64,000 nucleotides of DNA from an uncultured Planctomycetota bacterium (GTDB lineage: Bacteria > Planctomycetota > Phycisphaerae > UBA1845 > CAIVHJ01): positions 1,635 to 65,634 of the forward strand of contig CALODL010000010.1 of assembly GCA_942492115.1 (NCBI GenBank). Direction: 5' to 3'. Below the pieces are notes generated by a model. The model was not told the DNA's origin. It made no database searches and saw only the letters and a list, made by a program, of their open reading frames with translations. Made by a program: the position numbers and the translations under genes. Positions 48,619 through 62,415 of this stretch are shown one piece after another. The stretch's first letter is position 1. Each line of letters begins with the position of its first letter.

Positions 48619-51600
48619 CTACCGTTCGCGTCGGTGCACGACTTCGATGTGCGCTGCCGTAACCTCTTCAATCGCGATGTAGCCGTGCGCTGACGTCGGA
48701 AACAATACCGTACGCGCAGAGGCATCGTCGGGATCGTAAGCAAGCGACACGATGAAAGTGCCCCGTGCATCTTTGCTGGCCCGCAGCGTCAGTGTGGCGA
48801 GGTATGCACCGTCCAATGCATTCACACCTGGACGATCAAGCCCTGCTACCAACTGCCGCGTGCGCAGGTTGTAGGCATCCCACCAGGCGCCGGGATCGAA
48901 TACATGATCATCATGCTCCTGAACGGCCAAATCGATGAGATCGAGTGCCCCCGCCGTGCCACCGAGCACCTCGAAATGGAGTTGATAACCTCGTAAGTCA
49001 AAGACTGCAGCATCCAGGCGTACGGTCACCTCCACGGTACCGCCCGGGCGAACGGCGGGGCTCTGCGGGTCCAGACGTACGGCAGTGGTCCCAACGACCT
49101 CGGGGGTGATCATCGGCGACGGACCGCCATCCAACGGGCAACTGCACGACGACGCCCCCTCGAAAGCGTTCAAGGCGGCAAATGCATCGTTGCCGTCACA
49201 CACACCATCTGGTTCGCAGCTACCAAACTGACCACCGCAATCCACATTAAAGGCCACTGGAGCCTCCACCTCACACGGGAATGATGCCGGCGGCGGTGTG
49301 TTGGGATCGACGTCAGCGAAACAGTTCAACGCCAGAAAGCGATCGTTACCATCTGCGGTCCCATCAGGTGCACACGCGCCGAACTGGCCGCCCATGTCGC
49401 CGAATACGACTTCGGTTGCCTGGCACACACCCGCTCCGCACAGCCACCACACGCAGCCATCGTCGCGCACCCCATTGTTGTCCAGATCGGCGCAGTCGGA
49501 CACGATCGTACAGTCACCCCCTCCACAACCGATGGCATCTTCATCGAGTTCGTCATCGCAGTCATCATCGATACCGTCGCACGTCGCATCCTCTGCCGCC
49601 GGTTCGCCCGGCATACAGTCATCGATGACCACACCCTCGACACAGACGGTCATGCCACTGGCCATACACGCGCCTATCCCACAGAGGGTCTTACTGGCTT
49701 CGAAGTCCTCATCGAAGATGGCATCACAGTCATCATCGATGCCATCACACGTCGCGTCATCCACGGCCGGAGTACCCGGGACGCAACTGTCGGTCGGGAC
49801 ACCGTCAACACAACCCGACAGCCCCTCGGACGCACACGCACCCACGCCGCACGTCGTCGCCGTGCTCATCACATCCTCGTCGGTCAGACCGTCGCAATCA
49901 TCGTCGACCCCGTCGCACGTCGCATCGTCCACGGCCGGAGTGCCCGGGACGCAACTGTCGGTCGGGACACCGTCAACACAGCCCGACAACCCCTCGGACG
50001 CACACGCACCCACGCCGCACGTCGTCGCCGTGCTCATCACGTCCTCGTCGGTCAGACCGTCGCAATCATCGTCGACCCCGTCGCACGTCGCGTCGTCCAC
50101 GGCCGGAGTGCCCGGGACGCAACTGTCGGTCGGGACACCGTCAACACAGCCCGACAGCCCTTCGGACGCACACGCACCCACGCCGCACGTCGTCGCCGTG
50201 CTCATCACGTCCTCGTCGGTCAGACCGTCGCAATCATCGTCGACCCCGTCGCACGTCGCGTCGTCCACGGCCGGAGTACCCGGAACGCAGCTGTCGGTCG
50301 GGACACCGTCAACACAGCCCGACAGCCCTTCGGACGAACACGCGCCCACACCGCACGTCGTCGCCGTGCTCATCACGTCCTCGTCGGTCAGACCGTCGCA
50401 ATCATCGTCGACCCCGTCGCACGTCGCGTCGTCCACGGCCGGAGTACCCGGAACGCAGCTGTCGGTCGGGACACCGTCAACACAGCCCGACAGCCCTTCG
50501 GACGCACACGCGCCCACACCGCACGTCGTCGCCGTGCTCATCACGTCCTCGTCGGTCAGGCCGTCGCAATCATTGTCGACCCCGTCGCACGTCGCGTCGT
50601 CCACGGCCGGAGTACCCGGAACGCAGCTGTCGGTCGGGACACCGTCAACACAGCCCGACAGCCCTTCGGACGCACACGCACCCACGCCGCACGTCGTCGC
50701 CGTGCTCATCACGTCCTCGTCGGTCAGACCGTCGCAGTCCTCGTCCACTCCGTCACACAGCGTGTCACTGACCGCTGCACCCGCGAACGGGTCACATGAA
50801 TCCTCGACAGCACCCGCCACACACGTCAGCACACCGGTGTTGCCGGCACAGGCTCCTACGCCACACTCTGATGGACTGGACACATAATCTTCATCGAACG
50901 AACCATCACAATCGTCATCGAGGCCATCGCATGTCGGATCGGTTGGCGCGGGTGGAGAATGGTCACACACCCCTGCCACACAGGTATCGAGGGTGCAGTC
51001 GTCAAAGTCATCACACAAACTGTCGTCGGGCACGCCCACGCAGGACCCGTCGGTACAGGTATCGACGGTGCACACGAGACCATCATCACATGGCAACGTG
51101 TTGTCCGTCGCGACGCAATTCCCGGCCCCGTCACACGCATCATCGGTACATGGATTGGTGTCGGCCGTACACGGGGTTCCCGCAGAACTGGCCACATTGC
51201 TACACACACCTGCGGTACAGGAATCATCAGTGCACTCGAGACCATCGGCGCAATCGGCCGGGGTCACGACATCGAGGGTCGCAACCAGACTGGTCGCATC
51301 CCCACAGGAGTTGGTCACGACCACGTCGTAATCACCCGCATCGGCAGGTCCCACTGGATCGATGAGCAACGTCGGTTGATCTGCTCCAGGAATCGGTGTG
51401 CCCTGGAATCGCCATGCATAGGTCAACGGCACGCTGCCACTCGGCGTGACGTCCAACACCACGCTGTCGCCCGAGCACACGCTGGAAGATTCAGGTGGAG
51501 TGACAATCACCGGCGGCACACATGGCCCCGTGATGCAGAAGCGCTCGAAAGAAAACACCTGCGCTGCCGGCGCATTGCGGTGAGTCGCAAACAGACCCGC

Positions 51601-54600
51601 GAACGTCACGGGGCCCGTCATCCCATCCGGTAGAACCACGCCATTGAACAGGTCGGAGGTCATCACGACGGTGCCGACCGGCACAGCGGCGCCACCATTC
51701 ACGGCATAGGCGGCGGTCACCTCCTGGGTCGTTGGATCGAGTGACATCGACAGAACGACGTCGTCACCGCTGACCGCGATGTTCTCGATCTCGACCCCAC
51801 CGGGGCTGCTCCCGCCCTCCTCTCCACGGACCTCGACGTCATAGTTCCCGGGGGTCGATGAGAAAACAATGAGTTTGACGTAGGTGTCCTCATCGAGAAA
51901 GACCCACCCACCTGCCTGCGCAAACCCGCGCGTCGCGACGGGCAAGTTGTTGAGCGCAATGTCAACATTCAGTTCGGACGTCGCATCGACGGCCACACCG
52001 AGTCCATTGTCCAGTGAGTTGTTGGAGGTGAACTGGATGCCGGCCGTCGTCGTTAGCGCCAGCTCACCACTCACGATGTCCACATCGATTTGCCCGGGCA
52101 GATACCCGGCCGCGTTCGATGGCGGATCGACCATGGTGAATCCCGTGCCGTCCCCATCGACATCCTCCAAGCCCCCCTCGTCCATCTCCCAGTCGAGCTT
52201 GAACGGCAGGCTGACGGGCACATCGACGCAGTCGAGCATTGAAATCGGGTTGCACCCGGCACCTGGCGTCACTTGTAAGGTGACCATGAGTGTCGCGTCG
52301 GCGTAGCCACTGGATGTGGCCGTTACCGTCGCCGTGTACGCCCCCGGCGCCAGGCCATCGGTCGCGACTTCTACATCGAACGGGATGTCGGCCGTGACCT
52401 GCGCCGCGACCGTCAACCAAGTCGGCTCCAGACCGGTCGCATCGTCAACCGCCGCAATGTCCGCAGTCGGGGATTGTCCGTCGTTGGCGGTGACCGTGGT
52501 GCTGGCCGAGTCGATATTGCTGCCTTCTTCCATCATGAACGGCAGGAGCGCGGGTGAGAACGCCAATGCAGGCGGAGCAGCGGGCTCCGCAAGGCAGAAA
52601 TCCTCGAAGACGAAATCGAGTGTCGAGCCGTTGCGCTGCGTTGCGAATACACCCGCGAAACTGACTGGGCCGGTCATGCCGTCGGGCAAAGTGACGCCAG
52701 AGAACAGGGCATTGTTCACGGTGATCGCATCAACCAGCATCTCGCCACCACCGTTGACCTGCACAAGCCCACTGACCTCGGAAGTTTGCGGATCGAGGAC
52801 CATCGTCAGCTTGACGTGATCACCAGGTACGACGATGCTCGCGGTAGCAGAACTCTCGACGAACTGATTGCTCTGCTCGTAGAGAATCTCGACCTTGTAG
52901 CTGCCGGTGACGTCCGAAACGACGACCAACTTGATGTAGTGCGATTCATTCAGGAAGAACCACACGCCCGCCTGCTCGAACTGACCGCTGACGGCAGGCA
53001 GGTTGATTATCGTTGTTTCAATGCGCGTGTCCTGGGCGCTGGCATCCCAGGCGACGCCCAGGCCATTATCCAGAGAATTGGGATTGTTGGCCGTCTCGCC
53101 GAACTGAATCCCGGGCGTCGTTGTGATCGTGAGTGTTCCCGCTCCAGTGTCGACGGCCAGATTGTTCGGCAGGTATCCGGCCCCATTGCTCGGCGGATCA
53201 ACCATGGTGAAGCCGGTCCCCACGCCAGAATTGTCCACCAGACCGTCTTCCGAAGCGTCCCAGTCAAGCTTGTGCGGCAGCGTAACCGGCACGTCGGCGC
53301 AGACGGGTTGGGCCAACACAGCGCAATCGCCGGATGGAGCCAACTGCACGTTCATGACCACGAAATCAAAGTCCTGGTAGTCGCCATGAAATGCGTCCTC
53401 GAAGGCGACGAAATAGGCGTATGGCACAACGAAACCCTGGCGGTCCTTCAACGGGTAAACCCTTGCGGAATGCGCTGACTGCGCTGGATTGAGCGCGATG
53501 TTAAGATCGTCTTCGGTGTAAGCCGTGTGCGAAGGGCTGGTGATGTAGAATCCGAATGCCCCAGGCCCAGGATCGAATGTCGTCACCCCGGAAGTCATCT
53601 CGGGAAACAGCGTCTGGTGCTCCGCCGGACTCGATGCGCCGCTGAGTACCCCCACTTGCGTGAGGGACGGGGCTGCGCCGTTCGGCCCGTAGTACCCATA
53701 GGGCAGCGCGAATGCTGGAGAATAACGTGCGACCGGCACCATGACCACGTCACCGGATCCGGACTTTGTGAACAGTGATGCGGGCACTTCGTCACCAATG
53801 GGTGCTGCGTCGACGCCCAGCTCCAGCTCCGTTCCCCCGACGTCGATAGCATGCCCCAACGTCTGAACAACATCGTGCAACGTAGGTTCATTGGAGCCCT
53901 CGAGGCCGTCGGCACTGAGGCCGTGAACACCCACCTGAACGACGGCCTCATTGGGGTCGTCGCTGGCGATCTCAACAGCGGCGCTGAATGTGCCAACGGC
54001 TGTCGCACCGGGCGAAAAAGCGATATCGATCATCACTTCCGCGCCGGGTATCAGCGTCACGGGGGTGGTCGGCGGGGTCACGATGGTGAACTCACCCGCA
54101 TCAGCGCCGGTCAATGCCACGGTTGCAATCTCGAGATCTGCCGTGCCGGTGTTGGATAGAGTCAAAACCTGCGCTGGCGTGACTGTATCCTTAAGGCCGC
54201 TGTACACCAGGTCAGATGCCGACAAGCCAATATCCGGTACACCGGATCCGCCGAGAGGACGACACAACGTGATTTTGGATGCCCCGAATTCAGATACATA
54301 AAGATGCCCATTGTCGAGGTTCTCGACGACATCGAGCGGGTTATTGAAACCGGTGAGACCCGTGATCCCCGTCTGCGATGCCACGATCTCCAAACCGCTG
54401 CCACTTGGCGTCAGGGCCATGAGATCATCTCCGCTGCTGTAGCGGACGACCAGCAATGCCCCCTGAAGGTCACCGGCTGAACGATACTCGATGATCCCAT
54501 TCGGCGATTTGTGCGTACCAAAATCGAAGACCGCCCCACGGTAGTTGCTGTCCGGCAGGGTCCCCTCGGGATATTCGGTGACCTCGAGTGGATCTACTGC

Positions 54601-55575
54601 TGCCGTCGGATTCGCGCCGCTCATGGCAAACTCGCAGCGCTGCGGATTGGGATGACCGTAGTAACCACCGGGTTCGATGCGCAGCAGATAGTCCGGTTGA
54701 ATCGACACACCGACCAGGCCGGTCACGGCCGGCCCGCCGTATGAACTGCCGTCGGCGCAGGCCGCACCCACCACGCCTTCGGGGGTATTGCCATTGGGAG
54801 CAGAACCGTTGTTCGGTATGTACAGGTGACCGTTGCCATGCCACACCAGATCGTAGGCGTTGCGCAGCCCGCTGGCATGGATGGTCAGAGCAGCGCCCGG
54901 CGCATAGGGATCATACGTGCCCGGCAGCTCGGTCATGACGTCGAGTGGCGGAGTCGCCACGCCCAGCGTGTCGAAGCGCAACACCGCCGCGGACAGTCCC
55001 CGTTCTGCACGGTCAGCCCACGCGGGGTCGGGTGCGCCCATCGCGGAATTGGATCCCTGCACGACATACAATGCTCCGTCGGGCCCGAATACCATGCTGT
55101 TGGTCGTGTGGTCGCGACTCGAGCGCGGCAGGCCGACAATGAAGTCCTGGACGTTCTGCAAGTGGCTGCCACTCAAACGGGTGATCTTGCCGGTCCAGTC
55201 CGCCATTTCAGAAAAACCGTATTCGCTGTGGCTGACCCAGGCAATGAGGTTCTGTGGTGTAGAGGCTGGATCGAAAGCCAATCCGATCGCCAGACGATCT
55301 GCTCCCTCGGCAACTTGCAGCGCATCAAGGATCTCGACTGCCCCCAGGATGCCATCTGAATCGATGGACCAGCGCCGCACCTGCCCCTCGAGCGTCAAGC
55401 CATAGAGCTGCCCATCCGGTCCGATCGTCAGACTCGTATACTGTGCTCCTGCGGACGTAGGCAACGATACCTGTTCAAAAGTCGCGCCGTCTGCGCCGGC
55501 CAGGGCAGCCAGGCACGACATCATCCCCACGACCGCTGGCCTGATAGCAATGTTCACGAACGTTCCCTCCTGCAC
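48619..55575 (-). CDS. Giant secreted multidomain protein (2318 aa): SGDH-like beta-propeller, choice-of-anchor-D/ASH-like domain, two ConA/LamG-like modules, Ig-like domain, ~10 Cys-rich 'CDGxDDDCDGxxDED' repeats, two dockerin-like repeats, C-terminal beta-domain
   Basis: Single uninterrupted ORF. N-terminal domain motifs 'FGPDGALYVVQGSNSAMG' and 'GLRNAYDLVWHGNGHLY' (glucose/sorbosone dehydrogenase-like). Two internally duplicated ~330-aa modules. Cys-rich repeats of the Myxococcus-type pattern. 'GGQFGACAPDGTADGNDRFLALNCF' occurs twice (dockerin-like Ca loops). Confidence 0.9.
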   Translation of the reverse strand: MQEGTFVNIAIRPAVVGMMSCLAALAGADGATFEQVSLPTSAGAQYTSLTIGPDGQLYGLTLEGQVRRWSIDSDGILGAVEILDALQVAEGADRLAIGLAFDPASTPQNLIAWVSHSEYGFSEMADWTGKITRLSGSHLQNVQDFIVGLPRSSRDHTTNSMVFGPDGALYVVQGSNSAMGAPDPAWADRAERGLSAAVLRFDTLGVATPPLDVMTELPGTYDPYAPGAALTIHASGLRNAYDLVWHGNGHLYIPNNGSAPNGNTPEGVVGAACADGSSYGGPAVTGLVGVSIQPDYLLRIEPGGYYGHPNPQRCEFAMSGANPTAAVDPLEVTEYPEGTLPDSNYRGAVFDFGTHKSPNGIIEYRSAGDLQGALLVVRYSSGDDLMALTPSGSGLEIVASQTGITGLTGFNNPLDVVENLDNGHLYVSEFGASKITLCRPLGGSGVPDIGLSASDLVYSGLKDTVTPAQVLTLSNTGTADLEIATVALTGADAGEFTIVTPPTTPVTLIPGAEVMIDIAFSPGATAVGTFSAAVEIASDDPNEAVVQVGVHGLSADGLEGSNEPTLHDVVQTLGHAIDVGGTELELGVDAAPIGDEVPASLFTKSGSGDVVMVPVARYSPAFALPYGYYGPNGAAPSLTQVGVLSGASSPAEHQTLFPEMTSGVTTFDPGPGAFGFYITSPSHTAYTEDDLNIALNPAQSAHSARVYPLKDRQGFVVPYAYFVAFEDAFHGDYQDFDFVVMNVQLAPSGDCAVLAQPVCADVPVTLPHKLDWDASEDGLVDNSGVGTGFTMVDPPSNGAGYLPNNLAVDTGAGTLTITTTPGIQFGETANNPNSLDNGLGVAWDASAQDTRIETTIINLPAVSGQFEQAGVWFFLNESHYIKLVVVSDVTGSYKVEILYEQSNQFVESSATASIVVPGDHVKLTMVLDPQTSEVSGLVQVNGGGEMLVDAITVNNALFSGVTLPDGMTGPVSFAGVFATQRNGSTLDFVFEDFCLAEPAAPPALAFSPALLPFMMEEGSNIDSASTTVTANDGQSPTADIAAVDDATGLEPTWLTVAAQVTADIPFDVEVATDGLAPGAYTATVTATSSGYADATLMVTLQVTPGAGCNPISMLDCVDVPVSLPFKLDWEMDEGGLEDVDGDGTGFTMVDPPSNAAGYLPGQIDVDIVSGELALTTTAGIQFTSNNSLDNGLGVAVDATSELNVDIALNNLPVATRGFAQAGGWVFLDEDTYVKLIVFSSTPGNYDVEVRGEEGGSSPGGVEIENIAVSGDDVVLSMSLDPTTQEVTAAYAVNGGAAVPVGTVVMTSDLFNGVVLPDGMTGPVTFAGLFATHRNAPAAQVFSFERFCITGPCVPPVIVTPPESSSVCSGDSVVLDVTPSGSVPLTYAWRFQGTPIPGADQPTLLIDPVGPADAGDYDVVVTNSCGDATSLVATLDVVTPADCADGLECTDDSCTAGVCSNVASSAGTPCTADTNPCTDDACDGAGNCVATDNTLPCDDGLVCTVDTCTDGSCVGVPDDSLCDDFDDCTLDTCVAGVCDHSPPAPTDPTCDGLDDDCDGSFDEDYVSSPSECGVGACAGNTGVLTCVAGAVEDSCDPFAGAAVSDTLCDGVDEDCDGLTDEDVMSTATTCGVGACASEGLSGCVDGVPTDSCVPGTPAVDDATCDGVDNDCDGLTDEDVMSTATTCGVGACASEGLSGCVDGVPTDSCVPGTPAVDDATCDGVDDDCDGLTDEDVMSTATTCGVGACSSEGLSGCVDGVPTDSCVPGTPAVDDATCDGVDDDCDGLTDEDVMSTATTCGVGACASEGLSGCVDGVPTDSCVPGTPAVDDATCDGVDDDCDGLTDEDVMSTATTCGVGACASEGLSGCVDGVPTDSCVPGTPAVDDATCDGVDDDCDGLTDEDVMSTATTCGVGACASEGLSGCVDGVPTDSCVPGTPAVDDATCDGIDDDCDAIFDEDFEASKTLCGIGACMASGMTVCVEGVVIDDCMPGEPAAEDATCDGIDDDCDDELDEDAIGCGGGDCTIVSDCADLDNNGVRDDGCVWWLCGAGVCQATEVVFGDMGGQFGACAPDGTADGNDRFLALNCFADVDPNTPPPASFPCEVEAPVAFNVDCGGQFGSCEPDGVCDGNDAFAALNAFEGASSCSCPLDGGPSPMITPEVVGTTAVRLDPQSPAVRPGGTVEVTVRLDAAVFDLRGYQLHFEVLGGTAGALDLIDLAVQEHDDHVFDPGAWWDAYNLRTRQLVAGLDRPGVNALDGAYLATLTLRASKDARGTFIVSLAYDPDDASARTVLFPTSAHGYIAIEEVTAAHIEVVHRRER
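49575..50760. repeat. 168-bp tandem repeat array inside the giant gene (about 6 near-identical core units at 49744-50752, flanked by degenerate units)
   Basis: Period-168 recurrence of 'GTCGCACGTCGC' at 49912, 50080, 50248, 50416 and 50584. Each unit encodes a 56-aa 'CDGVDDDCDGLTDEDVMSTATTCGVGACASEGLSGCVDGVPTDSCVPGTPAVDDAT'. Units differ by 0-3 nt. Confidence 0.85.
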
Positions 55576-56276: not shown

Positions 56277-56936
56277 ATGAATAAGACTCAATATGCAACC
56301 ATGACCGTCATGACCGCCGCATTGTTGGCCCTGACCGGATGCGGCAACCAAGGCGGTGGGGGTGGCTCGAGTACATGCGCCTCAGCCACGATCACTGGTA
56401 ACGGCGCCAACAACGCCTTCACTGCGATGGCTGCGACGCAATGCAATGTCGAGTTTGAAGGAACCACATTGATCATCGACCTGCTCGAGTTGAACGACAC
56501 AGGTGCAAGCCCGCGCGTCCGTTTCACGCTGCGCGACCTCAGCATGGCTGATCTCATCGATGGGGCCAGCTTCCCGTTGACTCGCGATGATGACGAACTG
56601 CCCGAACCCGCGATCTACCAGGAGTTCATCGGCGCGACGATGGACGAAAACATGAACGCCGACGGCCCATTCTGGACGTCGAATGCCGGCTCGCTCGACA
56701 TCACCGTTGACGACACCGGCGAGGTCTCAGCGTCATTCGACTTCACCGCCGATAACCCGCGGCCCGACATGCCGTCCACGGCCACAGGCACGGTCACGGT
56801 CGATGGCGGCCCGATGGTTCTGTTCGCCGGGACCACTGGAGGCGGTGGTGGATGTGGCGCGTTTGGTGCAGGCGGTATCGCTTTGATGATGATGTGCCTG
56901 ACCATCACCTCCCGTCGAATGCGCCGTCGACGGTAA
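56277..56936 (+). CDS. Lipoprotein with a Gly-rich C-terminal TM/Arg-cluster tail (possible second sorting signal)
   Basis: Lipobox 'LLALTGCGNQ' and C-terminal 'TTGGGGGCGAFGAGGIALMMMCLTITSRRMRRRR*'. Confidence 0.65.
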   Translation: MNKTQYATMTVMTAALLALTGCGNQGGGGGSSTCASATITGNGANNAFTAMAATQCNVEFEGTTLIIDLLELNDTGASPRVRFTLRDLSMADLIDGASFPLTRDDDELPEPAIYQEFIGATMDENMNADGPFWTSNAGSLDITVDDTGEVSASFDFTADNPRPDMPSTATGTVTVDGGPMVLFAGTTGGGGGCGAFGAGGIALMMMCLTITSRRMRRRR

Positions 56937-57160: not shown

Positions 57161-58111
57161 TCAGTTAACCTTTTTGCGCACCTTTGGTTTAGGCGGAACA
57201 CGTCGTTGAGGAGCTGGCGACCGCGGCAGCGACGGTCCCACGGGCGAGTCAGCCGGGCGCGTCAGTGGATGCGGATACGCTGCGTCCAATGCCGGTGCTT
57301 CGTGGAACACTTCGGTGCGACCACTACGCACGGCGATGCGCATGATGCGGGGGTTCATGCGCTGCCCCACCGGATCACGGTCCTGGCGCATGAACAGAAT
57401 CTCCGTCGCGTCAGCTGAGAACACGGGACGCGTGTCGCAGTGTTCACCAGTCGTGAGCATCTTCACGTAATCGGAATCGAGCTCTTTCACACGCAGCCCG
57501 CCGTTGGACACAAAAGCGAGGAGATGCCCATCCGGAGCCACTGCAACCTCGACGGCCGTCGTAATCGTGCCATCGCGATCGTAGGCAATCCGCTGGACGC
57601 GTCGGGTGTCGGGATCGAAGCGGTAGATGTGGGAGAGTGCGTCTGTATCGTTCTCGAACAGCAGCCCCCGTGAGTCGGGCATCCAGGCCGGAAGCCTGCC
57701 GCGCGCGACCACATGGGAGATCCCTGTGCCTTCGTCGAGTGTATAGACACTCCAACCGGCCTGGGCGGTATAGCCGGAAAAAGCCAGCCGCATGCCATCC
57801 GGCGAGACGACTAGTCCATCCAGCATTTTCCAGCCGGCGGAGACGAGTCTGCGGCCGCTGCCGTCCAGCGCGACATACCACAAACTGGTATCGCCAGCGA
57901 AGTACACGCCACGGTTGTCCGCAGAGAAGGCTACGGCCGATGTGTCGGCGGTTCCCGGGATCGGACGGCGGCCGCCGCTGTCGTAATGGAGCACGATGGC
58001 CTTTGGCGTCACGACCGCTGCATACAGCGAATCGACCTGCTGCGTGCCGGCTTGAACGACGGGCATCTGAGCGCAGGTCGTCACCAAGATGTTGAGCACA
58101 AACAAGATCAT
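57161..58111 (-). CDS. Periplasmic PD40/TolB-like beta-propeller repeat protein
   Basis: Signal peptide 'MILFVLNILVTTCAQMPVVQAG' and repeated 'SPDG../..FSADG../..APDG' blade motifs. Last gene of the STK-sigma operon. Confidence 0.7.
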   Translation of the reverse strand: MILFVLNILVTTCAQMPVVQAGTQQVDSLYAAVVTPKAIVLHYDSGGRRPIPGTADTSAVAFSADNRGVYFAGDTSLWYVALDGSGRRLVSAGWKMLDGLVVSPDGMRLAFSGYTAQAGWSVYTLDEGTGISHVVARGRLPAWMPDSRGLLFENDTDALSHIYRFDPDTRRVQRIAYDRDGTITTAVEVAVAPDGHLLAFVSNGGLRVKELDSDYVKMLTTGEHCDTRPVFSADATEILFMRQDRDPVGQRMNPRIMRIAVRSGRTEVFHEAPALDAAYPHPLTRPADSPVGPSLPRSPAPQRRVPPKPKVRKKVN

Positions 58112-58151
58112 GAAAACTGTCCTGATCGATACGTGTGCTGAATGGTCCAGG

Positions 58152-58754
58152 CTACTCGAGAATGTCACCCAGCTCGTGCCGCAAGCGTTGCAACACGCGT
58201 GAACGAGCCACGCGCACCCCAACAGGACTCATGCCCAACTCATTAGCGACGTCAGCTGTCGGACGTCCATCCACGACCGTAGCCCAGAAAGCCGACCATG
58301 TGTTGTCCCTGAAGTGCTCTTGCACCTGCATGAGCGCTCTGCGCAATACACTGTTGAACGCTGTCTCTTCTTCGGACGCGTCGACCCTGATCTGCGCCTG
58401 GAACGGCACCTCTGACATACGACGTTGGATTTCGGTTCCACCCTGACCGGGTGGTTCTCGATCGCGACGGCGATAGAGGTCACACACCTTGCTGTACGTA
58501 ATCGTGCGCAGCCATCCGCGGAAGGTCCCGCCCTCACTGCGTACCTCGAACCGCGACAGGTTGGCCGCTGCAGCGTGGAACACCTCTTGAAATACGTCGG
58601 CAAGATCTGCCTCGGGCACCTGCCATCTGCGACACCAGTGGTACACCAGAGGCGCGTACAATTGTACGAGGCGCCCCCACGCCTCGGCATCGTTGGCCCG
58701 GGCGCGTTCCAGCAGGCTCGGTGAAGTCCTGGCGCTGTCCGTAATCCTGTTCAT
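58152..58754 (-). CDS. ECF (sigma-70 family) RNA polymerase sigma factor
   Basis: Region 2 'LVQLYAPLVYHWCRRW...ADLADVFQEVF' and region 4 'ANELGMSPVGVRVARSRVLQRLRHELG'. The ATG overlaps the kinase stop (ATGA at 58751-58754). Confidence 0.85.
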   Translation of the reverse strand: MNRITDSARTSPSLLERARANDAEAWGRLVQLYAPLVYHWCRRWQVPEADLADVFQEVFHAAAANLSRFEVRSEGGTFRGWLRTITYSKVCDLYRRRDREPPGQGGTEIQRRMSEVPFQAQIRVDASEEETAFNSVLRRALMQVQEHFRDNTWSAFWATVVDGRPTADVANELGMSPVGVRVARSRVLQRLRHELGDILE

Positions 58755-60559
58755 CGCCGCCCCAATCGTTCGAATACCGCGACGCTGACCGCCGAGATCA
58801 AACACGCGCTGGCAATCCCGATGATCCACACAAACGTTCCACGCAACCCGGCGCGCGTACGCGCCAGATCCCGTTCCAACGGATGAATGATCTCGAGCAC
58901 ACCGCGCACATCGCCGACCTTCCAGTCCGTCTTCGTGCTCGCAGGATGGCTGTTGTGGCATCCGATACACGACGCCTGCATCAACCGCGCGGTTGCATAC
59001 CGCAACGCATAGCGACCATCGACGTGCTCGAAGCGATAGACCGGGTCCGCGGGCACATTCCTCAGTGACATGAGAGCTGCGCGTTCGAATTCGTCACGCG
59101 GTCCGCCATCTGTCCGCGTTGTGAAAGGATAATCACTATACAGCCTCACTTGCATACCATATTCACTCTTACGCATGTCCTCACCCAGTGCAATGGTGAA
59201 TGTTGCCGGGAGCGGGATGGCACCGGCGCGACCGACGAAGTCATGGGTTACATCCACACCGGCGGCGTGCATCGGCGTGGCAACCGCAATGCTGTAGAGT
59301 GCATTCATTCGCTCGAGCATCTCAGCCTGCATTGCGGCGCTATCGAGCGCAGTTTGTTCCATGAGATGGCCAGACAATCTTGACAGATGCAGCAGTCCTC
59401 CCGCCAATCCGAGAACAACCGCGACGGTGAGCGAGGACACTACGGGATTGCGCCGACTCCAGCGCCACACACGCTCGGGAGCGCCAATCGGGCGGGCGGC
59501 GATCGGTTCACCAGCCAGAAAGCGCCGTTGATCGCATGCCAGGTCGCCAGCTGTCGCATAGCGCCGTGCCGGGCTCTTGGCCATGGCCTTGAGGCATATG
59601 GTCTCGAGATCTCGCGGAATACGATCGTTCAAGCGCCGCGGTGGCCTGGGATCCTCCTCCAGGACCTGCATGAGGACCATGCGCCGCTGACCACGAAAGG
59701 GCCGCTCGCCAGTGAGCAACTCATACATCATCACGCCAAGGCTGAACACGTCGCTGCGCGCATCGACAAAATGCCCTTCGCCTCGGGCCATCTCCGGGGA
59801 CATGTACGCTGGAGTGCCCATCACGTCGCCGGCACGGGTCACGGTGACCTCGCCCGCGTCGCGTTTGGCCAGACCAAAGTCCATGACATGCGGCTGACCG
59901 TTGGAATCGATCATGATATTGGCGGGTTTGATATCACGATGAATGATCCCGCGCGTGTGGGCGTAATGCAGGGCCTCGGACACTGTTAGCAGCAGATCAC
60001 AGACAACGCGCGGATCGCAGCGCTCATTGCGGATGCGATGCTCGAGTGTCTGCCCTGCGATATACTCACTCACCAGGTAGCACGTGCCGTCATCCGTCTC
60101 ACCGGCCTCGAACAATGCGACAATGTTCTGGTGCTTGAGTTGCGCCGCGCTGCGGGCCTCACGCAGAAAACGTTGGCGATCTTCATCTGTGCCCAGCACG
60201 TGGCTGCGGCAGACCTTGACGGCTACGATGCGTTCGAGCTGCGTATCGCGGGCTCGAAACACGTGGCCAAAGGACCCGCTGCCCAACTCGGACAGTAGCT
60301 CGAAGCGTCCGACACGCACAACCCCATCGCGCAATGCACGGGCCATGCGCCGGCCGGGATCGACGACAAGTTCTGCGCCTTCGGCCATTGCCGTCAGTGC
60401 CGCATCGAGCAACGGACGGGGTAGAGTCACTTCGTCGCTGACACCAGATGCTTCAAGACTCGACAGACGTTCGAACAGTTCGTCGGTCGGACGGTCGAGC
60501 TCACCAAGCGCGAGGGCACAGGATTCGCAAACCGCGACATGCTCGGCAATGACATGCAA
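58751..60559 (-). CDS. Hanks-type Ser/Thr protein kinase with an N-terminal CxxC segment, a TM-flanked periplasmic DUF3365/Tll0287-like domain carrying CxxCH, and a second C-terminal TM
   Basis: 'LGSGSFGHVFRA', 'VAVK', 'HRDIKPANIM', 'DFG', 'GTPAYMSPE'. TM1 'LTVAVVLGLAGGLLHL', then a periplasmic segment with 'CIGCHNSHP', then TM2 'FVWIIGIASACLISAVSVAVF'. Confidence 0.9.
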   Translation of the reverse strand: MHVIAEHVAVCESCALALGELDRPTDELFERLSSLEASGVSDEVTLPRPLLDAALTAMAEGAELVVDPGRRMARALRDGVVRVGRFELLSELGSGSFGHVFRARDTQLERIVAVKVCRSHVLGTDEDRQRFLREARSAAQLKHQNIVALFEAGETDDGTCYLVSEYIAGQTLEHRIRNERCDPRVVCDLLLTVSEALHYAHTRGIIHRDIKPANIMIDSNGQPHVMDFGLAKRDAGEVTVTRAGDVMGTPAYMSPEMARGEGHFVDARSDVFSLGVMMYELLTGERPFRGQRRMVLMQVLEEDPRPPRRLNDRIPRDLETICLKAMAKSPARRYATAGDLACDQRRFLAGEPIAARPIGAPERVWRWSRRNPVVSSLTVAVVLGLAGGLLHLSRLSGHLMEQTALDSAAMQAEMLERMNALYSIAVATPMHAAGVDVTHDFVGRAGAIPLPATFTIALGEDMRKSEYGMQVRLYSDYPFTTRTDGGPRDEFERAALMSLRNVPADPVYRFEHVDGRYALRYATARLMQASCIGCHNSHPASTKTDWKVGDVRGVLEIIHPLERDLARTRAGLRGTFVWIIGIASACLISAVSVAVFERLGRR

Positions 60560-60849
60560 CGCGGTGCTATCGAGTTTGCCGACTGCAAAGGCGGCCAGAG
60601 TGACGCCATCTGGACAGGTGTCGACCCCCAGGGCTCTGCTCCTTTAGGTTAGCGCCCGAACCAATGTGCATTCTACAGCATCAGCGGCTGGCTGATTGGC
60701 AGAAACTGAACGTCATCAACGCTTTGGGCTTTCCACAACGAGAATCCACGTGAGTGTAACGCTCCTTCGTTGTATAGGGTGGCCCGTAAGTCGTTTGTCA
60801 TTGCATCAATCTCACATTTGCACACGGAACACCATTGAAGGAGACCGCC

Positions 60850-62415
60850 ATGCACCCCGCAAACCGCCGTGAATTCCTTGCCGAGGTCGGGCGAGGCATG
60901 TTGGTCGCGAGCGTCGGAGCACCACTTGCATGCGAGCTGGGCCTGGCGCACGCGTTCGCAGGTGATACGAACTCCGCTCTGCGTTTCGGAACGCTCGAAC
61001 CGCTGGTCGCCCTCATGCAGGACACCCCCGTAGATCGACTCCAGCCCGCTCTCGTCGAGCAACTCGCACATGGGACGACGCTCCGCACCCTCATCGCCGC
61101 GGGTGCGCTGGCCAACGCACGGTCCTTCGGCGGACAGCACTATGTCGGCTACCACACGCTGATGGCGTTGATGCCAGCATACGATATGGCTCAACAGTTG
61201 CCTGCCGCCGAACAGGCTCTTCCTGTTCTCAAGGTGCTCTATCGCAACACGGATACGATCCAGCAGGAAGGGGGTCGGTCGAGCGAGGTCCTTGAGGAGA
61301 TCGACGATCATGATCACCCGGCCCCCACCGCAGAACGCCTTGTGGACCGGACGCGTGCCTGCGATATGGTCGGAGCCGAGCGCGTCTTCGCTGCGATGAT
61401 GAAACAGCAGGAAGCCTCGGAAGCCTACAACAACCTGCAGTTCATCGTGCAGGATGATATCGACGTTCACCGTGTCGTGCTCGCGTGGCGAGCATGGGAT
61501 ACGTTGCGTATTGCGGGTGCCGCGCACGCCCACACGCTCTTGCGCCAATCAGTCCGACATTGTGTCGATGTCGAACAGCGGCGCCTGGACCGCGGGAAAC
61601 CCGAACCACGCATTAGAACACTGCTACCCCAGTTGCTCAATCGCTATAAGCTCTTCGAGAAACCACTTGGCGCGCGCTCGGCGCCGGACGGTTGGGTGGA
61701 CAGTATGGCGCGCACCATCTTCTCGAGCACGCGCGCCCGGGCAGCCGATGCCGCAGCGGCAGCGCTGGCCGAAGGCATCGCTCCCGAGGCGGTCGGCGAA
61801 GCCATCTCGCTGGCGGCCAACATGCTGGTACTGTACGACCGCGGCCGCAGTCAGGACGAGAGCCCCGATAAGCCCGCGGGGAGCGTGCACGGCGCTTCGG
61901 TCGGTGTCCATGCATCGGACTCGGCCAACGCGTGGCGGCATATCGCGCGCGTCAGCAACACGCGCAACACTGCTGCAAGCCTCATCGTTGGTGCGTATCA
62001 CACTGCGGGGCAACACGGCCGTGTAGGAGATGTGCCGTGGGCCGGATCGGATCACGCGAAGATCCAGGCGGTTGATCCCGCCACATTACTGAAAGACGCC
62101 GAGCAGGCCATCCGTGATAACGACCAGGCCAGGGCCAGCACCATCGTTGCGCGCTACGGCACGCTCGAACTGCCCGCCGAGCCGATGTTCGGTATGTTGA
62201 TCAAGTACGGGGTCAGTGAGGATGGTGCATTGCATGCTGAGAAGTACTACCACACCGTGCGCGAGGAGTTCTACAGTACGCGTCCCGCATTCCGCTGGCG
62301 GCACGTGGTAGCACTGGCGCGGGTCACGGCCAGTGAATATGGTCTACCCGCTCCCGGAATGGCGCAGGCCCGGGCGCTGCTTGGTTTGAGCCCGGGGCAG
62401 TCTCTCGGGTCCTGA
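60850..62415 (+). CDS. Tat-signal (twin-arginine) exported all-helical protein of unknown function
   Basis: AAGGAG RBS 6 nt before the ATG at 60850. 'MHPANRREFLAEVGRGMLVASVGAPLA' is a Tat signal. No recognisable catalytic motif. Confidence 0.7.
   Translation: MHPANRREFLAEVGRGMLVASVGAPLACELGLAHAFAGDTNSALRFGTLEPLVALMQDTPVDRLQPALVEQLAHGTTLRTLIAAGALANARSFGGQHYVGYHTLMALMPAYDMAQQLPAAEQALPVLKVLYRNTDTIQQEGGRSSEVLEEIDDHDHPAPTAERLVDRTRACDMVGAERVFAAMMKQQEASEAYNNLQFIVQDDIDVHRVVLAWRAWDTLRIAGAAHAHTLLRQSVRHCVDVEQRRLDRGKPEPRIRTLLPQLLNRYKLFEKPLGARSAPDGWVDSMARTIFSSTRARAADAAAAALAEGIAPEAVGEAISLAANMLVLYDRGRSQDESPDKPAGSVHGASVGVHASDSANAWRHIARVSNTRNTAASLIVGAYHTAGQHGRVGDVPWAGSDHAKIQAVDPATLLKDAEQAIRDNDQARASTIVARYGTLELPAEPMFGMLIKYGVSEDGALHAEKYYHTVREEFYSTRPAFRWRHVVALARVTASEYGLPAPGMAQARALLGLSPGQSLGS

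What the first reader, a model, noticed from the sequence alone, without database searches (positions are those of the whole stretch)
57161..60559. STK -> ECF sigma -> PD40 operon; kinase has a TM-flanked periplasmic CxxCH (c-heme, Tll0287/DUF3365-like) sensor domain and an N-terminal CxxC segment
The kinase stop overlaps the sigma-factor start (ATGA at 58751-58754) and the PD40 protein follows 40 nt later, so the three are co-transcribed. The kinase topology is: cytoplasmic N-terminal 'VAVCESCALALGEL' (zinc-finger-like, reminiscent of anti-sigma ZAS motifs), Hanks kinase domain, TM1, ~190-aa periplasmic domain with 'CIGCHNSHP', TM2. This suggests a redox or heme-ligand-sensing kinase that controls, or acts as a pseudo anti-sigma for, its cognate ECF sigma, with a periplasmic beta-propeller as output or co-sensor. 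ECF-STK coupling is known in Planctomycetes, but a heme-c sensor on the kinase would be an unusual input.
Basis: partly seen in the sequence, partly recalled or inferred. Interest (0 to 1): 0.7.

Follow-up and report, generated by a model that had tools for sequence, protein, structure and literature searches.

The report
Heme-sensing kinase with built-in anti-sigma domain
A membrane protein kinase from a planctomycete-like bacterium combines an outward-facing heme sensor with an inward-facing zinc "anti-sigma" segment and is always encoded beside one particular sigma factor, which suggests an undescribed way of linking an outside gas or redox signal to gene switching.

Summary
Three minus-strand genes encode a Hanks kinase, an ECF sigma (ATGA overlap) and a PD40 protein 40 nt downstream. 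The kinase has two TM helices flanking a Tll0287/DUF3365 (sCache_heme) domain with CxxCH.

Corrections:
- The kinase starts 24 codons earlier, at CTG 60631. This restores a complete ZAS zinc motif (C6-x24-H31-x3-C35-x2-C38, the same spacing as ChrR).
- PD40 is absent from all 11 related loci.

Always conserved:
- The adjacent sigma (11/11 loci).
- A TGTAACGC-N4-KCGTTA element (10/10 loci with DNA).

Often conserved is a TAT-exported 515-aa protein with no Pfam hit (window 60850-62415). Its model resembles BTG13-type non-heme-iron dioxygenases.

The sigma keeps its acidic sigma2.2 patch (D50 and D53 in 44/44). It therefore lacks the defining ECF43 (EcfP/PknT) substitution and needs a negative regulator; the kinase's own N-terminus is the candidate.

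Most likely mechanism: the periplasmic c-heme senses NO or redox state, this activates the kinase, and the sigma is released from or activated at the fused anti-sigma domain. Binding, heme attachment, ligand and phosphosite are all untested.

The family is abundant in planctomycete metagenomes but uncharacterised. I rate it a new variant of known kinds.

The parts
58751..60631 (-). Kinase gene, corrected extent (626 aa): ZAS-like N-terminus, Hanks kinase, TM1, sCache_heme sensor, TM2
   Evidence: ORF and in-frame upstream reading. Met1 of 21 homologues aligns with the CTG codon. Pfam Pkinase 2e-52 and Tll0287-like 5.2e-16.
60631..60645 (-). Shine-Dalgarno-like AAGGAG (60644-60639), 7-nt spacer, and proposed CTG start codon (60631-60629)
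   Evidence: Read directly. In-frame stop TAA at 60646-60644. No ATG, GTG or TTG lies between that stop and the conserved Cys6 codon.
60437..60631 (-). N-terminal ZAS-type anti-sigma-like segment (aa 1-65): C6-x24-H31-x3-C35-x2-C38
   Evidence: C6, H31, C35 and C38 invariant in 22/22 sequences. Full motif in 118/120 homologues; the two exceptions are 5'-truncated gene calls. Profile hits ChrR 2q1z E 4.9e-4, DdvA 8rlz 5.5e-4, RslA 3hug 0.15. TIGR02451 E 2.4e-5. Pfam zf-HC2 E 0.054.
59492..60310 (-). Hanks-type Ser/Thr kinase domain (aa 108-380) with intact catalytic residues
   Evidence: Pfam Pkinase. K139, H231-R232-D233, N238, D251-x-G253 (DFG motif; F252 nearly invariant) and T273-P274-x-Y276 invariant in alignment A1.
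59375..59446 (-). TM helix 1 (aa ~396-419)
   Evidence: Kyte-Doolittle 19-residue window, peak 2.03. Basic stretch RWSRRNP on the kinase side.
58841..59374 (-). Periplasmic sCache_heme (Tll0287/DUF3365) sensor domain (aa ~420-597)
   Evidence: PF11845 E 5.2e-16. AF2 model pLDDT 90.8. Foldseek top hit GSU0935 heme-c sensor 3b42, followed by WalK, DcuS and CitA sCache domains.
58955..58969 (-). CIGCH c-type heme attachment motif (C555, C558, H559)
   Evidence: Read. Invariant in 22/22 sequences and 120/120 homologues. No other Cys in the sensor domain.
58775..58840 (-). TM helix 2 (aa ~598-619), followed by a 7-residue cytoplasmic tail
   Evidence: Hydropathy peak 2.35.
58152..58754 (-). ECF sigma factor (200 aa), translationally coupled to the kinase (ATGA overlap)
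   Evidence: Sigma70_r2 1e-10 and r4_2 1.1e-3. TIGR02937 1.1e-19. An orthologue is adjacent to the kinase in 11/11 other loci. D50, D53 and Q56 conserved 44/44; G105-G106-[ST]107 conserved 44/44.
57161..58111 (-). PD40/TolB-like beta-propeller protein with signal peptide (316 aa). Probably co-transcribed here, but not a conserved member of the module.
   Evidence: PD40 Pfam 3.3e-7. TolB propeller 2.3e-11. N-terminal hydrophobic segment. No homologue in any related locus (and the gene tables).
60755..60771 (+). Conserved cis element TGTAACGCTCCTTCGTT (family consensus TGTAACGC-N4-KCGTTA) in the divergent intergenic region
   Evidence: Single match in the 64-kb window against 0.01 expected. Present in every family locus with DNA and in 0 of 79 unrelated kinase loci.
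60850..62415 (+). Divergent TAT-signal protein (521 aa; RREFL) of a large uncharacterised family; frequent third partner of the module

Best explanation
The kinase appears to be a one-polypeptide transmembrane signalling device that controls the neighbouring ECF sigma factor.

Shown by sequence or homology:
- A periplasmic sCache_heme domain with an invariant CxxCH sits between two TM helices.
- It is connected through TM1 and a conserved juxtamembrane segment to a catalytically intact cytoplasmic Hanks kinase.
- The kinase is preceded by a ZAS-type (Cys/His3Cys2Cys zinc) anti-sigma-like segment.
- A sigma gene of one family always lies beside the kinase. That sigma keeps the acidic sigma2.2 patch needed for core RNA polymerase binding.

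Inferred mechanism:
1. At rest, the N-terminal ZAS segment holds the sigma at the membrane.
2. A diatomic gas binds the c-heme, or the heme changes redox state. By analogy with characterised fused sCache_heme receptors that lack an axial Cys, the most likely ligand is NO.
3. The signal passes through the membrane and switches on the kinase.
4. Phosphorylation releases or activates the sigma. The best candidate site is the invariant Thr/Ser107 in the GG[ST][ED] motif of the sigma2-sigma4 linker.
5. The freed sigma then transcribes units marked by the TGTAACGC-N4-KCGTTA element. Here these would be the shared divergent region serving the kinase-sigma(-PD40) operon and the TAT-exported BTG13-like putative iron enzyme. 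In some relatives the target is a radical-SAM/MFS/DUF418 operon instead.

The zinc-thiolate site could add a second, cytoplasmic thiol-oxidation or nitrosation input.
For: Domain identities:
- Pfam and NCBIfam hits for kinase, sensor and sigma.
- Sensor model and fold match to a c-heme sensor.
- CxxCH, HxxxCxxC and the catalytic motifs conserved across 120 homologues.
- The N-terminal profile finds anti-sigma factors (ChrR, DdvA) as its top PDB hits, aligned at identical residue numbers to ChrR's H6/H31/C35/C38.

Partnership:
- Sigma adjacent in 11/11 loci in three different gene orders, so the link is not an accident of operon inheritance.
- ATGA coupling in the window, L088 and L091.
- In an independent set of 80 kinase loci, an HxxxCxxC N-terminus goes with an adjacent sigma of this family: 4/5 against 4/75, Fisher p 2e-4. 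The ratio becomes 5/6 after finding the second kinase in L004.
- No separate anti-sigma gene appears in any gene table.

Need for a negative regulator:
- D50, D53, Q56 and E/D57 conserved 44/44, aligned to the DAED region of SigE and CnrH.
- Reviews state that non-ECF43 STK-linked ECFs keep DAED and that their mechanism is unknown (PMC8999054).
- These groups are described as lacking anti-sigma factors (PMC7826278).

Ligand analogy:
- Fused sCache_heme domains behave as NO sensors, and an NO-bound Cache_heme receptor stimulates phosphorylation by a partner Ser/Thr kinase (bioRxiv 10.64898/2026.02.01.703092 and 10.64898/2026.05.25.727664).
- 107/120 homologues have no extra Cys that could serve as a Tll0287-type axial ligand.

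Target element.
Against: - No experiment has been done. Binding of the N-terminus to the sigma, zinc content, heme attachment, ligand identity and phosphosite are all inferred.
- The similarity to anti-sigma domains is weak (E about 5e-4 by profile; Pfam zf-HC2 only 0.054). It covers about 55 residues, roughly helices I-III, so a complete four-helix ASD is not demonstrated.
- The conserved DNA element has AAC and CGT only 7 nt apart. It therefore cannot be a full ECF -35/-10 pair, its core is palindromic, and it may be bound by something other than this sigma.
- The sensor profile gives no sequence-level hit to Tll0287 or GSU0582/0935 in the PDB. Foldseek TM-scores are modest (0.36-0.47).
- The ECF group of the sigma could not be assigned.
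Confidence: 0.5

Rival explanations
1. Pure phospho-activation, as in ECF43 EcfP/PknT. The kinase only phosphorylates the sigma to make it competent for RNA polymerase binding. The N-terminal zinc segment is a substrate-docking or dimerisation module with no inhibitory role.
For: - STK-ECF synteny is the hallmark of ECF43 and ECF59-62/217, and direct sigma phosphorylation has been shown for EcfP and EcfK.
- An invariant Thr/Ser107 sits in the sigma2-sigma4 linker, comparable to the linker phosphosite T106 of EcfK.
- T10, S11 and S13 are also conserved.
Against: - The defining ECF43 feature, loss of the acidic DAED patch, is tested here and not met: D50 and D53 are 44/44.
- A sigma that can bind core polymerase without modification needs restraint.
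- The N-terminal segment resembles anti-sigma factors specifically, with ChrR and DdvA as the top hits.
Confidence: 0.25
2. The ZAS segment is the primary sensor (cytoplasmic thiol oxidation or nitrosative stress, as in RsrA/RshA/ChrR). The heme domain and kinase only tune or localise the protein.
For: - A complete Cys-His-Cys-Cys zinc motif is conserved in 118/120 homologues.
- Precedent: ZAS anti-sigmas release their sigma on oxidation, and some are additionally phosphorylated by PknB (PMC8999054).
Against: - The sensor and kinase domains are conserved more strongly than the N-terminus: mean column identity 69% for the sensor against 46% for the N-terminus.
- CxxCH and the catalytic residues are invariant, which is hard to explain for accessory parts.
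- Many ZAS proteins are not redox-active (background knowledge).
Confidence: 0.1
3. Kinase and sigma are neighbours only because the sigma drives kinase expression. The kinase's substrates lie elsewhere, and the N-terminal motif is an unrelated zinc ribbon.
For: - The conserved DNA element lies upstream of the kinase in most loci, so co-regulation alone could maintain the linkage.
- The anti-sigma similarity is statistically weak.
Against: - Adjacency persists through three rearranged gene orders in 11/11 loci.
- The HxxxCxxC N-terminus and the sigma family co-occur across kinases with unrelated C-terminal domains, such as the WD40 forms in L022 and L072.
- Translational coupling through the ATGA overlap.
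Confidence: 0.1
4. One reading: the PD40 beta-propeller is an integral output or co-sensor of the system.
For: 40-nt spacing and no terminator between sigma and PD40 in this window. It carries a signal peptide, so it shares the periplasm with the sensor domain.
Against: No PD40 homologue in any of 11 related loci, including the closest relative at 67% identity. The positions next to the pair are taken instead by the 515-aa TAT protein or by a radical-SAM operon.
Confidence: 0.05

Closest known systems
ECF43 sigma / Hanks kinase pairs (EcfP-PknT of Vibrio parahaemolyticus; EcfK-PknS of Xanthomonas citri)
   Same: A transmembrane Hanks kinase with an extracytoplasmic sensor domain is encoded next to an ECF sigma with no separate anti-sigma gene. 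PknS also has a conserved N-terminal extension of about 83 aa of unknown role. A possible linker phosphosite is present.
   Different: ECF43 sigmas replace the acidic DAED/DxxD patch with uncharged residues (STTA/QTTA), and a phospho-Thr restores the charge. This sigma keeps DxxDxxQE in 44/44 sequences. The sensor domains differ (TPR in PknS). No ZAS motif is reported for those kinases.
Planctomycete STK-linked ECF groups ECF59-ECF62 and ECF217 (Jogler 2012; Casas-Pastor 2021)
   Same: Same phylum-level setting and same sigma-kinase synteny. Reviews note that these groups keep a DAED-like motif and that their mechanism is unknown.
   Different: Group membership could not be tested because no ECF group models were available. 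The published description says these groups lack anti-sigma factors. Here the kinase itself carries a ZAS-like segment, and the papers I could read do not mention the heme sensor.
ZAS class I anti-sigma factors (ChrR, RsrA, RslA, DdvA)
   Same: Same zinc-ligand pattern and spacing: C6/H31/C35/C38 here against H6/H31/C35/C38 in ChrR. They are the top PDB profile hits. The motif is N-terminal, cytoplasmic and encoded next to an ECF sigma.
   Different: Here the segment is fused to a Hanks kinase rather than to a cupin, a TM anchor, or nothing. Only about 55 residues are detectably similar. Sigma binding is untested.
sCache_heme (DUF3365/Tll0287) receptors, including the Cache_heme-HAMP receptor plus separate STPK of Pseudomonas azotoformans
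   Same: A periplasmic Cache fold with an inserted CxxCH and no axial Cys. In P. azotoformans, NO binding to the heme domain enhances phosphorylation by a Ser/Thr kinase.
   Different: In P. azotoformans, receptor and kinase are separate proteins joined through a HAMP domain, and no sigma factor is involved. Here sensor and kinase are one chain in reversed order (output-TM-sensor-TM). Pkinase is not among the output domains listed for the family.
Anti-sigma factor kinases RsbW / SpoIIAB
   Same: One protein combines sigma sequestration with Ser/Thr-directed kinase activity.
   Different: These have an unrelated GHKL-type fold, are soluble, phosphorylate an anti-anti-sigma factor, and act on group 3 sigmas rather than ECFs (background knowledge).

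Membership tests
Tll0287-like / DUF3365 / sCache_heme (PF11845) | Match to the family profile above the curated threshold | tested here: met
   PF11845 E 5.2e-16, 59.8 bits against a cut-off of 24.1, covering profile positions 5-144 of 144.
Tll0287-like / DUF3365 / sCache_heme (PF11845) | Canonical CxxCH heme-c motif, conserved in 99% of the family according to the defining paper | tested here: met
   C555-I-G-C558-H559, invariant in 120/120 homologues. Family criterion taken.
Tll0287-like / DUF3365 / sCache_heme (PF11845) | Extracytoplasmic location, required for c-heme attachment | tested here: met
   The domain lies between two predicted TM helices, with basic residues on the kinase side of TM1.
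Tll0287-like / DUF3365 / sCache_heme (PF11845) | Single-Cache fold with a helix carrying CxxCH inserted before the last strand | tested here: met
   AF2 model pLDDT 90.8 with helix 132-140 (model numbering) between strands. Best Foldseek matches are GSU0935 (3b42), WalK, DcuS and CitA, with modest TM-scores of 0.36-0.51.
Tll0287-like / DUF3365 / sCache_heme (PF11845) | Covalently bound heme and ligand (NO) binding | not testable with these tools
   Needs heme staining, UV-vis spectroscopy and NO titration of the expressed domain.
Hanks-type Ser/Thr protein kinase | Kinase domain profile plus intact catalytic residues (VAIK Lys, HRD, DFG, activation-loop TP) | tested here: met
   Pkinase E 2e-52. 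K139, H231-R232-D233, N238, D251-x-G253 (DFG motif; F252 nearly invariant) and T273-P274 invariant.
ZAS class I anti-sigma domain | H/C-x23-26-H-x3-C-x2-C zinc motif | tested here: met
   C6-x24-H31-x3-C35-x2-C38 after correcting the start codon. Present in 118/120 homologues.
ZAS class I anti-sigma domain | Detectable homology to known anti-sigma domains | tested here: inconclusive
   Profile against PDB: ChrR E 4.9e-4, DdvA 5.5e-4, RslA 0.15. TIGR02451 E 2.4e-5 but far below its cut-off. Pfam zf-HC2 E 0.054, below its cut-off.
ZAS class I anti-sigma domain | Encoded next to, and binds, a cognate ECF sigma | tested here: inconclusive
   Adjacency is met in 11/11 loci, and the motif correlates with the sigma family (p 2e-4). 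Binding itself cannot be tested here.
ECF sigma factor (sigma-70 group 4) | Only sigma2 and sigma4 regions, about 200 aa | tested here: met
   Sigma70_r2 1e-10 and r4_2 1.1e-3. TIGR02937 sigma70-ECF 70.6 bits against a cut-off of 42.9. PDB hits are all ECF sigmas.
ECF43 (phosphorylation-activated ECF sigma) | Acidic DAED/DxxD patch of sigma2.2 replaced by uncharged residues with a conserved Thr (QTTA/STTA) | tested here: not met
   D50-L-A-D53-V-F-Q56-E57, with D50, D53 and Q56 in 44/44 sequences. Aligned to 'DAEDLTQE' of SigE and 'DVDDVVQD' of CnrH. Criterion taken.
ECF43 (phosphorylation-activated ECF sigma) | Hanks kinase gene in the conserved neighbourhood and no anti-sigma gene | tested here: met
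   Gene tables.
ECF59-62 / ECF217 (planctomycete STK-linked groups) | Assignment by the ECF Hub group HMMs | not testable with these tools
   No group models or reference sequences were available. NCBIfam Sig-70_plancto1 scores 38.9 bits against a cut-off of 183.75, so the sigma is not a member of that model.
DUF4243 / BTG13-type non-heme iron dioxygenase (for the 521-aa neighbour) | Sequence match to the family | tested here: not met
   No Pfam hit even at E<=10. No PDB sequence hit at E<=10 with a 31-sequence profile.
DUF4243 / BTG13-type non-heme iron dioxygenase (for the 521-aa neighbour) | Shared all-alpha fold | tested here: met
   [not shown]
DUF4243 / BTG13-type non-heme iron dioxygenase (for the 521-aa neighbour) | 4-His + carboxylated-Lys iron site | not tested
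   Six invariant His (102, 207, 347, 354, 384, 462) and two invariant Lys (128, 465) exist. Their equivalence to the BTG13 ligands could not be mapped because no residue-level structural alignment was available.

The most novel reading that the evidence does not exclude
Planctomycete Ser/Thr kinases that sit next to DAED-retaining ECF sigmas may carry their own ZAS anti-sigma domain. That would define a regulatory class, the 'anti-sigma Hanks kinase', in which one membrane protein both sequesters and phosphorylates its sigma. This locus would be the version with a periplasmic c-heme (NO/redox) input. Its output would be a TAT-exported iron enzyme distantly related to BTG13, transcribed from a promoter marked by an unusual palindromic element. 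If true, this answers the open question of how the non-ECF43 kinase-linked ECF groups are controlled.
Probability: 0.35. Interest if true: 0.8.

Novelty: new variant of a known kind. Interest (0 to 1): 0.62.

Why it matters
ECF sigma factors are among the main bacterial signalling systems. The kinase-linked groups are understood only for ECF43, where phosphorylation supplies a missing negative charge. Reviews state that the other kinase-linked groups keep that charge and that their mechanism is unknown (PMC8999054). The current classification records these groups as lacking anti-sigma factors (PMC7826278).

This locus and its many relatives show a conserved zinc anti-sigma-like segment inside the kinase. 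That gives a concrete, cheaply testable hypothesis for those groups.

It also adds a Ser/Thr kinase output, a sigma-factor route and the phylum Planctomycetota to the newly defined heme-Cache (NO sensor) family.

Finally, it links the system to a very large uncharacterised family of TAT-exported proteins (6998 homologues at E<=1e-10) whose fold suggests an unusual iron oxygenase.

Tried and rejected
Searches and look-ups that led nowhere:
It returned 79 unrelated kinases and only one true family locus (L001). I reused those 79 as negative controls.
- The exact look-up of the window's own annotated 602-aa protein found no contig.
- Two protein searches timed out before a third succeeded.
- The afdb50 fold library was unavailable.
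- Jogler 2012 and Wiegand 2020 are not held, and the Casas-Pastor supplements are not held. I therefore could not check whether the kinase N-terminus or the heme domain was noted there, and I could not assign an ECF group.
- Literature searches for zf-HC2 + Pkinase, and for Planctomycetes + ECF + STK + anti-sigma, found nothing.
- Sequence searches of the sensor against the PDB, by single sequence and by profile, found no Tll0287 or GSU hit. The fold search was needed instead.

Ideas considered and rejected:
- The conserved DNA element as a complete ECF promoter. The AAC-to-CGT spacing is 7 nt rather than about 16-17, and no conserved -10 lies at the expected distance.
- The same element as an RNA hairpin. 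The arms are invariant in sequence rather than covarying.
- PD40 as a module member (0/11 loci).
- An ECF43-type charge switch (DxxD retained).

Full report
**1. The observation**

The three genes lie on the minus strand. The mechanical ORF list gives the kinase as 58751..60559 (TTG start, 602 aa), a sigma-containing ORF ending at 58152, and a PD40 ORF ending at 57161.

Reading the strand confirms three points:
- The kinase stop TGA overlaps the sigma ATG (ATGA, 58754-58751).
- The sigma ends with TAG at 58154-58152.
- The first ATG of the PD40 gene is at 58111, exactly 40 nt downstream.

No terminator-like hairpin is found on the minus strand across the three genes.

Pfam scores:

| Protein | Family | E-value |
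|---|---|---|
| Kinase | Pkinase | 2e-52 |
| Kinase | Tll0287-like (PF11845) | 5.2e-16 |
| Sigma | Sigma70_r2 | 1e-10 |
| Sigma | Sigma70_r4_2 | 1.1e-3 |
| PD40 protein | PD40 | 3.3e-7 |

Hydropathy places two TM helices at aa ~396-419 and ~598-619. They flank a sensor of about 178 aa and leave a tail of about 7 residues.

**2. A correction that matters: the start codon**

Translating upstream in frame gives '...LGVDTCPDGVTLAAFAVGKLDSTALHVIAEHVAVCESC...' after a TAA stop only four codons before the Leu.
- In an alignment with 21 homologues, their Met1 aligns with that Leu (CTG, 60631).
- The 24 extra residues contain the family-invariant C6, P7, L12, F15 and G18.
- An AAGGAG lies 7 nt upstream of the CTG.
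- No ATG, GTG or TTG exists between the stop and Cys6, so CTG is the only plausible start.

The public annotation of this same gene (P0001, 602 aa) uses the internal TTG and so loses the first zinc ligand.

With the correction, the N-terminus reads C6-x24-H31-x3-C35-x2-C38. This is the ZAS zinc motif, with the same residue numbers as ChrR (H6/H31/C35/C38).

**3. What the kinase is**

- *Kinase domain.* Catalytic residues are invariant: K139, HRD 231-233, N238, the DFG motif at 251-253 (D251 and G253 invariant, F252 nearly so) and T273-P274. It is an active-type Hanks kinase.
- *Sensor domain.* It passes the PF11845 threshold. Its AF2 model is confident (pLDDT 90.8). The model's best PDB match is the c-heme periplasmic sensor of GSU0935, followed by the WalK, DcuS and CitA single-Cache domains.
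- *Heme motif.* CxxCH is present in 120/120 homologues, and 107/120 have no further Cys in the sensor.
- *N-terminus.* An N-terminal profile of 22 sequences finds ChrR (E 4.9e-4) and DdvA (5.5e-4) as the best PDB sequences, with RslA further down the list at 0.15. NCBIfam's ChrR model hits aa 9-58 (E 2.4e-5). Pfam zf-HC2 is weak (0.054).

This fits the 2026 description of DUF3365/Tll0287 as 'sCache_heme'. In that work CxxCH is 99% conserved. Stand-alone Cys/His forms look redox-like, and fused forms without the axial Cys behave as NO sensors (bioRxiv 10.64898/2026.02.01.703092). That paper lists histidine kinase, MCP, GGDEF/EAL and cyclase outputs. It does not mention Pkinase or Planctomycetes.

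The N-terminal similarity is consistent but weak, which would explain why automated pipelines miss it.

**4. How common it is**

- At least 120 clusters (90% identity level) share 54-67% identity over 95-100% of the length. All have Pkinase + PF11845. Those that carry an organism name are from Gemmataceae, Isosphaeraceae and Planctomycetota.
- A profile of the sensor alone finds 3219 representatives (50% clusters) at E<=1e-3 and 1097 at E<=1e-30.
- These fall into two placements. One is C-terminal in kinases like this one. The other is N-terminal in hybrid histidine kinases with PAS/GAF, HisKA, HATPase_c, receiver and Hpt domains.

The sensor is therefore a widely reused module, and the kinase fusion is a common planctomycete architecture. 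It is unstudied rather than rare.

**5. Genomic context**

I read eleven further loci: L001, L081, L084-L091, and one gene table without DNA.

| Feature | Loci |
|---|---|
| Orthologous sigma (46-64% identity) next to the kinase: downstream and overlapping, upstream co-directional, divergent, or convergent | 11/11 |
| PD40 homologue | 0/11 |
| 507-516-aa protein with a TAT signal and no Pfam hit, 51-71% identical to window 60850..62415 | 5/10 with DNA; probably also the DNA-less locus |
| Divergent radical-SAM/MFS/DUF418 operon instead | 3/10 |

**6. The conserved DNA element**

All ten loci with DNA carry the element TGTAACGC-N4-KCGTTA.
- It occurs once in the 64-kb window (60755-60771) against 0.01 expected.
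- I catalogued fourteen copies in nine loci and found further copies in L090 and L091.
- It has 0 hits in 79 unrelated kinase loci.
- It has 0 hits in five loci with other ZAS-kinase/sigma pairs.

It sits 38-174 nt before the start codon of the kinase, the 515-aa gene or the radical-SAM operon, and is oriented toward that gene.

Its AAC and CGT are only 7 nt apart and its core is a palindrome (TAACGC-N4-GCGTTA). It is therefore not a complete ECF -35/-10 pair. What binds it remains open (notebook 'unexplained').

**7. The sigma factor**

- Alignment with solved ECF sigmas places 'E-A-D50-L-A-D53-V-F-Q56-E57' on the DAED/DxxDxxQE region.
- In 44 orthologues, D50, D53 and Q56 are invariant and position 57 is always E or D.
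- The ECF43 switch depends on this patch being replaced by uncharged residues, with a phospho-Thr restoring the charge (PMC8999054, PMC13147305). That defining feature is not met here.
[quoted passage not shown] - The sigma does have an invariant hydroxyl residue, T/S107, in a GG[ST][ED] motif of the sigma2-sigma4 linker. It also has conserved T10, S11 and S13. EcfK has a functional linker phosphosite.

**8. Is the ZAS-kinase / sigma pairing general?**

In the 80 loci retrieved through kinase-domain patterns alone, five kinases have HxxxCxxC within 160 aa before the kinase domain.
- Four of those five have a sigma of this family within 1 kb. The fifth lies at a contig end.
- Only 4 of the 75 kinases without the motif have such a sigma (Fisher p 2e-4).
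- One of those four apparent exceptions (L004) has a second, ZAS-bearing kinase starting 2 nt after its sigma.
- The other ZAS kinases carry WD40 propellers or no recognised C-terminal domain.

The N-terminal ZAS segment therefore tracks the sigma, not the sensor. That pattern is expected if the segment is the sigma-binding part.

**9. The third partner**

The 521-aa protein has the following properties:
- An invariant RRxFL twin-arginine motif.
- 6998 homologues at E<=1e-10. None of the 120 listed carries a name other than 'hypothetical protein'.
- An all-alpha model with pLDDT 83.
- No sequence-level signal.

BTG13-type enzymes bind iron through four His and a carboxylated Lys (PMC12173810). 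The family here has six invariant His and two invariant Lys, but I could not map them onto the BTG13 site. TAT export fits a protein that acquires its cofactor before export, and it would share the periplasm with the heme sensor. This is a fold-level lead, not a membership claim.

**10. Mechanism and rivals**

The best-supported reading has four steps:
1. The periplasmic c-heme senses NO or redox state. NO is favoured only by analogy.
2. TM1 and the juxtamembrane segment activate the kinase.
3. The sigma, held by the N-terminal ZAS segment, is phosphorylated (candidate site T107) and released.
4. The sigma transcribes units marked by the conserved element.

I put this composite at about 0.5. 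Confidence in the individual steps is uneven:

| Step | Confidence |
|---|---|
| Heme-c binding | ~0.9 |
| Functional kinase-sigma partnership | ~0.9 |
| Sigma binding by the N-terminus | ~0.65 |
| NO as the ligand | ~0.4 |

Rival explanations:

| Rival | Confidence |
|---|---|
| Pure phospho-activation, with the zinc segment as a docking site | 0.25 |
| ZAS as the main redox sensor | 0.1 |
| Mere co-regulation of neighbouring genes | 0.1 |
| PD40 as co-sensor | 0.05 |

**11. Novelty and score**

Each part is known:
- Hanks kinase-ECF synteny in Planctomycetes.
- ZAS anti-sigma motifs.
- sCache_heme sensors.
- An NO-Cache_heme receptor working with a separate Ser/Thr kinase (bioRxiv 10.64898/2026.05.25.727664).

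I did not find the combination in one chain in the searchable literature. Nor did I find the implication that kinase-linked, DAED-retaining ECFs have a hidden anti-sigma domain.

I classify the finding as a new variant of known kinds, with interest 0.62. It is not a new category, but it makes an acknowledged open question directly testable and brings a very large uncharacterised protein family into view.

Noticed in passing
[not shown]
   Followed up: partly
window 60755-60771 (+); also L001, L081, L084-L091: Conserved element TGTAACGC-N4-KCGTTA (palindromic core TAACGC-N4-GCGTTA) upstream of the kinase, the 515-aa gene or a radical-SAM operon in every family locus with DNA. It is absent from 79 control loci. 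The spacing rules out a complete ECF -35/-10 pair, and the binder is unknown.
   Followed up: partly
window 60559-60631 (-): The public gene call for this kinase (602 aa, TTG start) appears 24 codons too short. The conserved N-terminus requires a CTG start at 60631, preceded by AAGGAG. The truncation removes the first zinc ligand (Cys6).
   Followed up: yes
L004 10806-12593, L008, L022, L047, L072: Other planctomycete Hanks kinases with the same HxxxCxxC N-terminus sit next to sigmas of the same family. Their C-terminal domains are different (WD40 propellers in L022 and L072). This suggests a general ZAS-kinase platform with exchangeable sensor domains.
   Followed up: partly
L088 3075-4601, L089 3259-4785, L090 2286-3683 (all minus strand): In three relatives, the divergent partner of the kinase-sigma pair is a radical-SAM / MFS transporter / DUF418 operon instead of the 515-aa gene. 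The same DNA element is present in all three intergenic regions, and in L088 and L090 a copy faces the radical-SAM operon.
   Followed up: partly
representative proteins P0248, P0251, P0254, P0258, P0279: A sensor domain of the same subfamily (E 1e-66 to 1e-74 against the kinase-sensor profile) occurs at the N-terminus of hybrid histidine kinases with PAS/GAF, receiver and Hpt domains. One heme sensor type therefore feeds both two-component and Ser/Thr-kinase pathways.
   Followed up: partly
window 48619-55575 (-): A giant 2318-aa ORF containing at least seven nearly identical tandem Cys-rich repeats ('ATCDGVD[DN]DCDGLTDEDVMSTATTCGVGAC[AS]SEGLSGCVDGVPTDSCVPGTPAVDD'), plus immunoglobulin-like and lectin-like stretches. 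It is probably a surface or adhesin protein.
   Followed up: no
window 56277-56936 (+): A 219-aa protein convergent with the PD40 gene. It has a lipoprotein-like signal ('LTGC') and a Gly-rich, hydrophobic, Arg-rich C-terminus ('GGGGCGAFGAGGIALMMMCLTITSRRMRRRR') that resembles a PEP-CTERM-type sorting tail. It has no Pfam hit.
   Followed up: no
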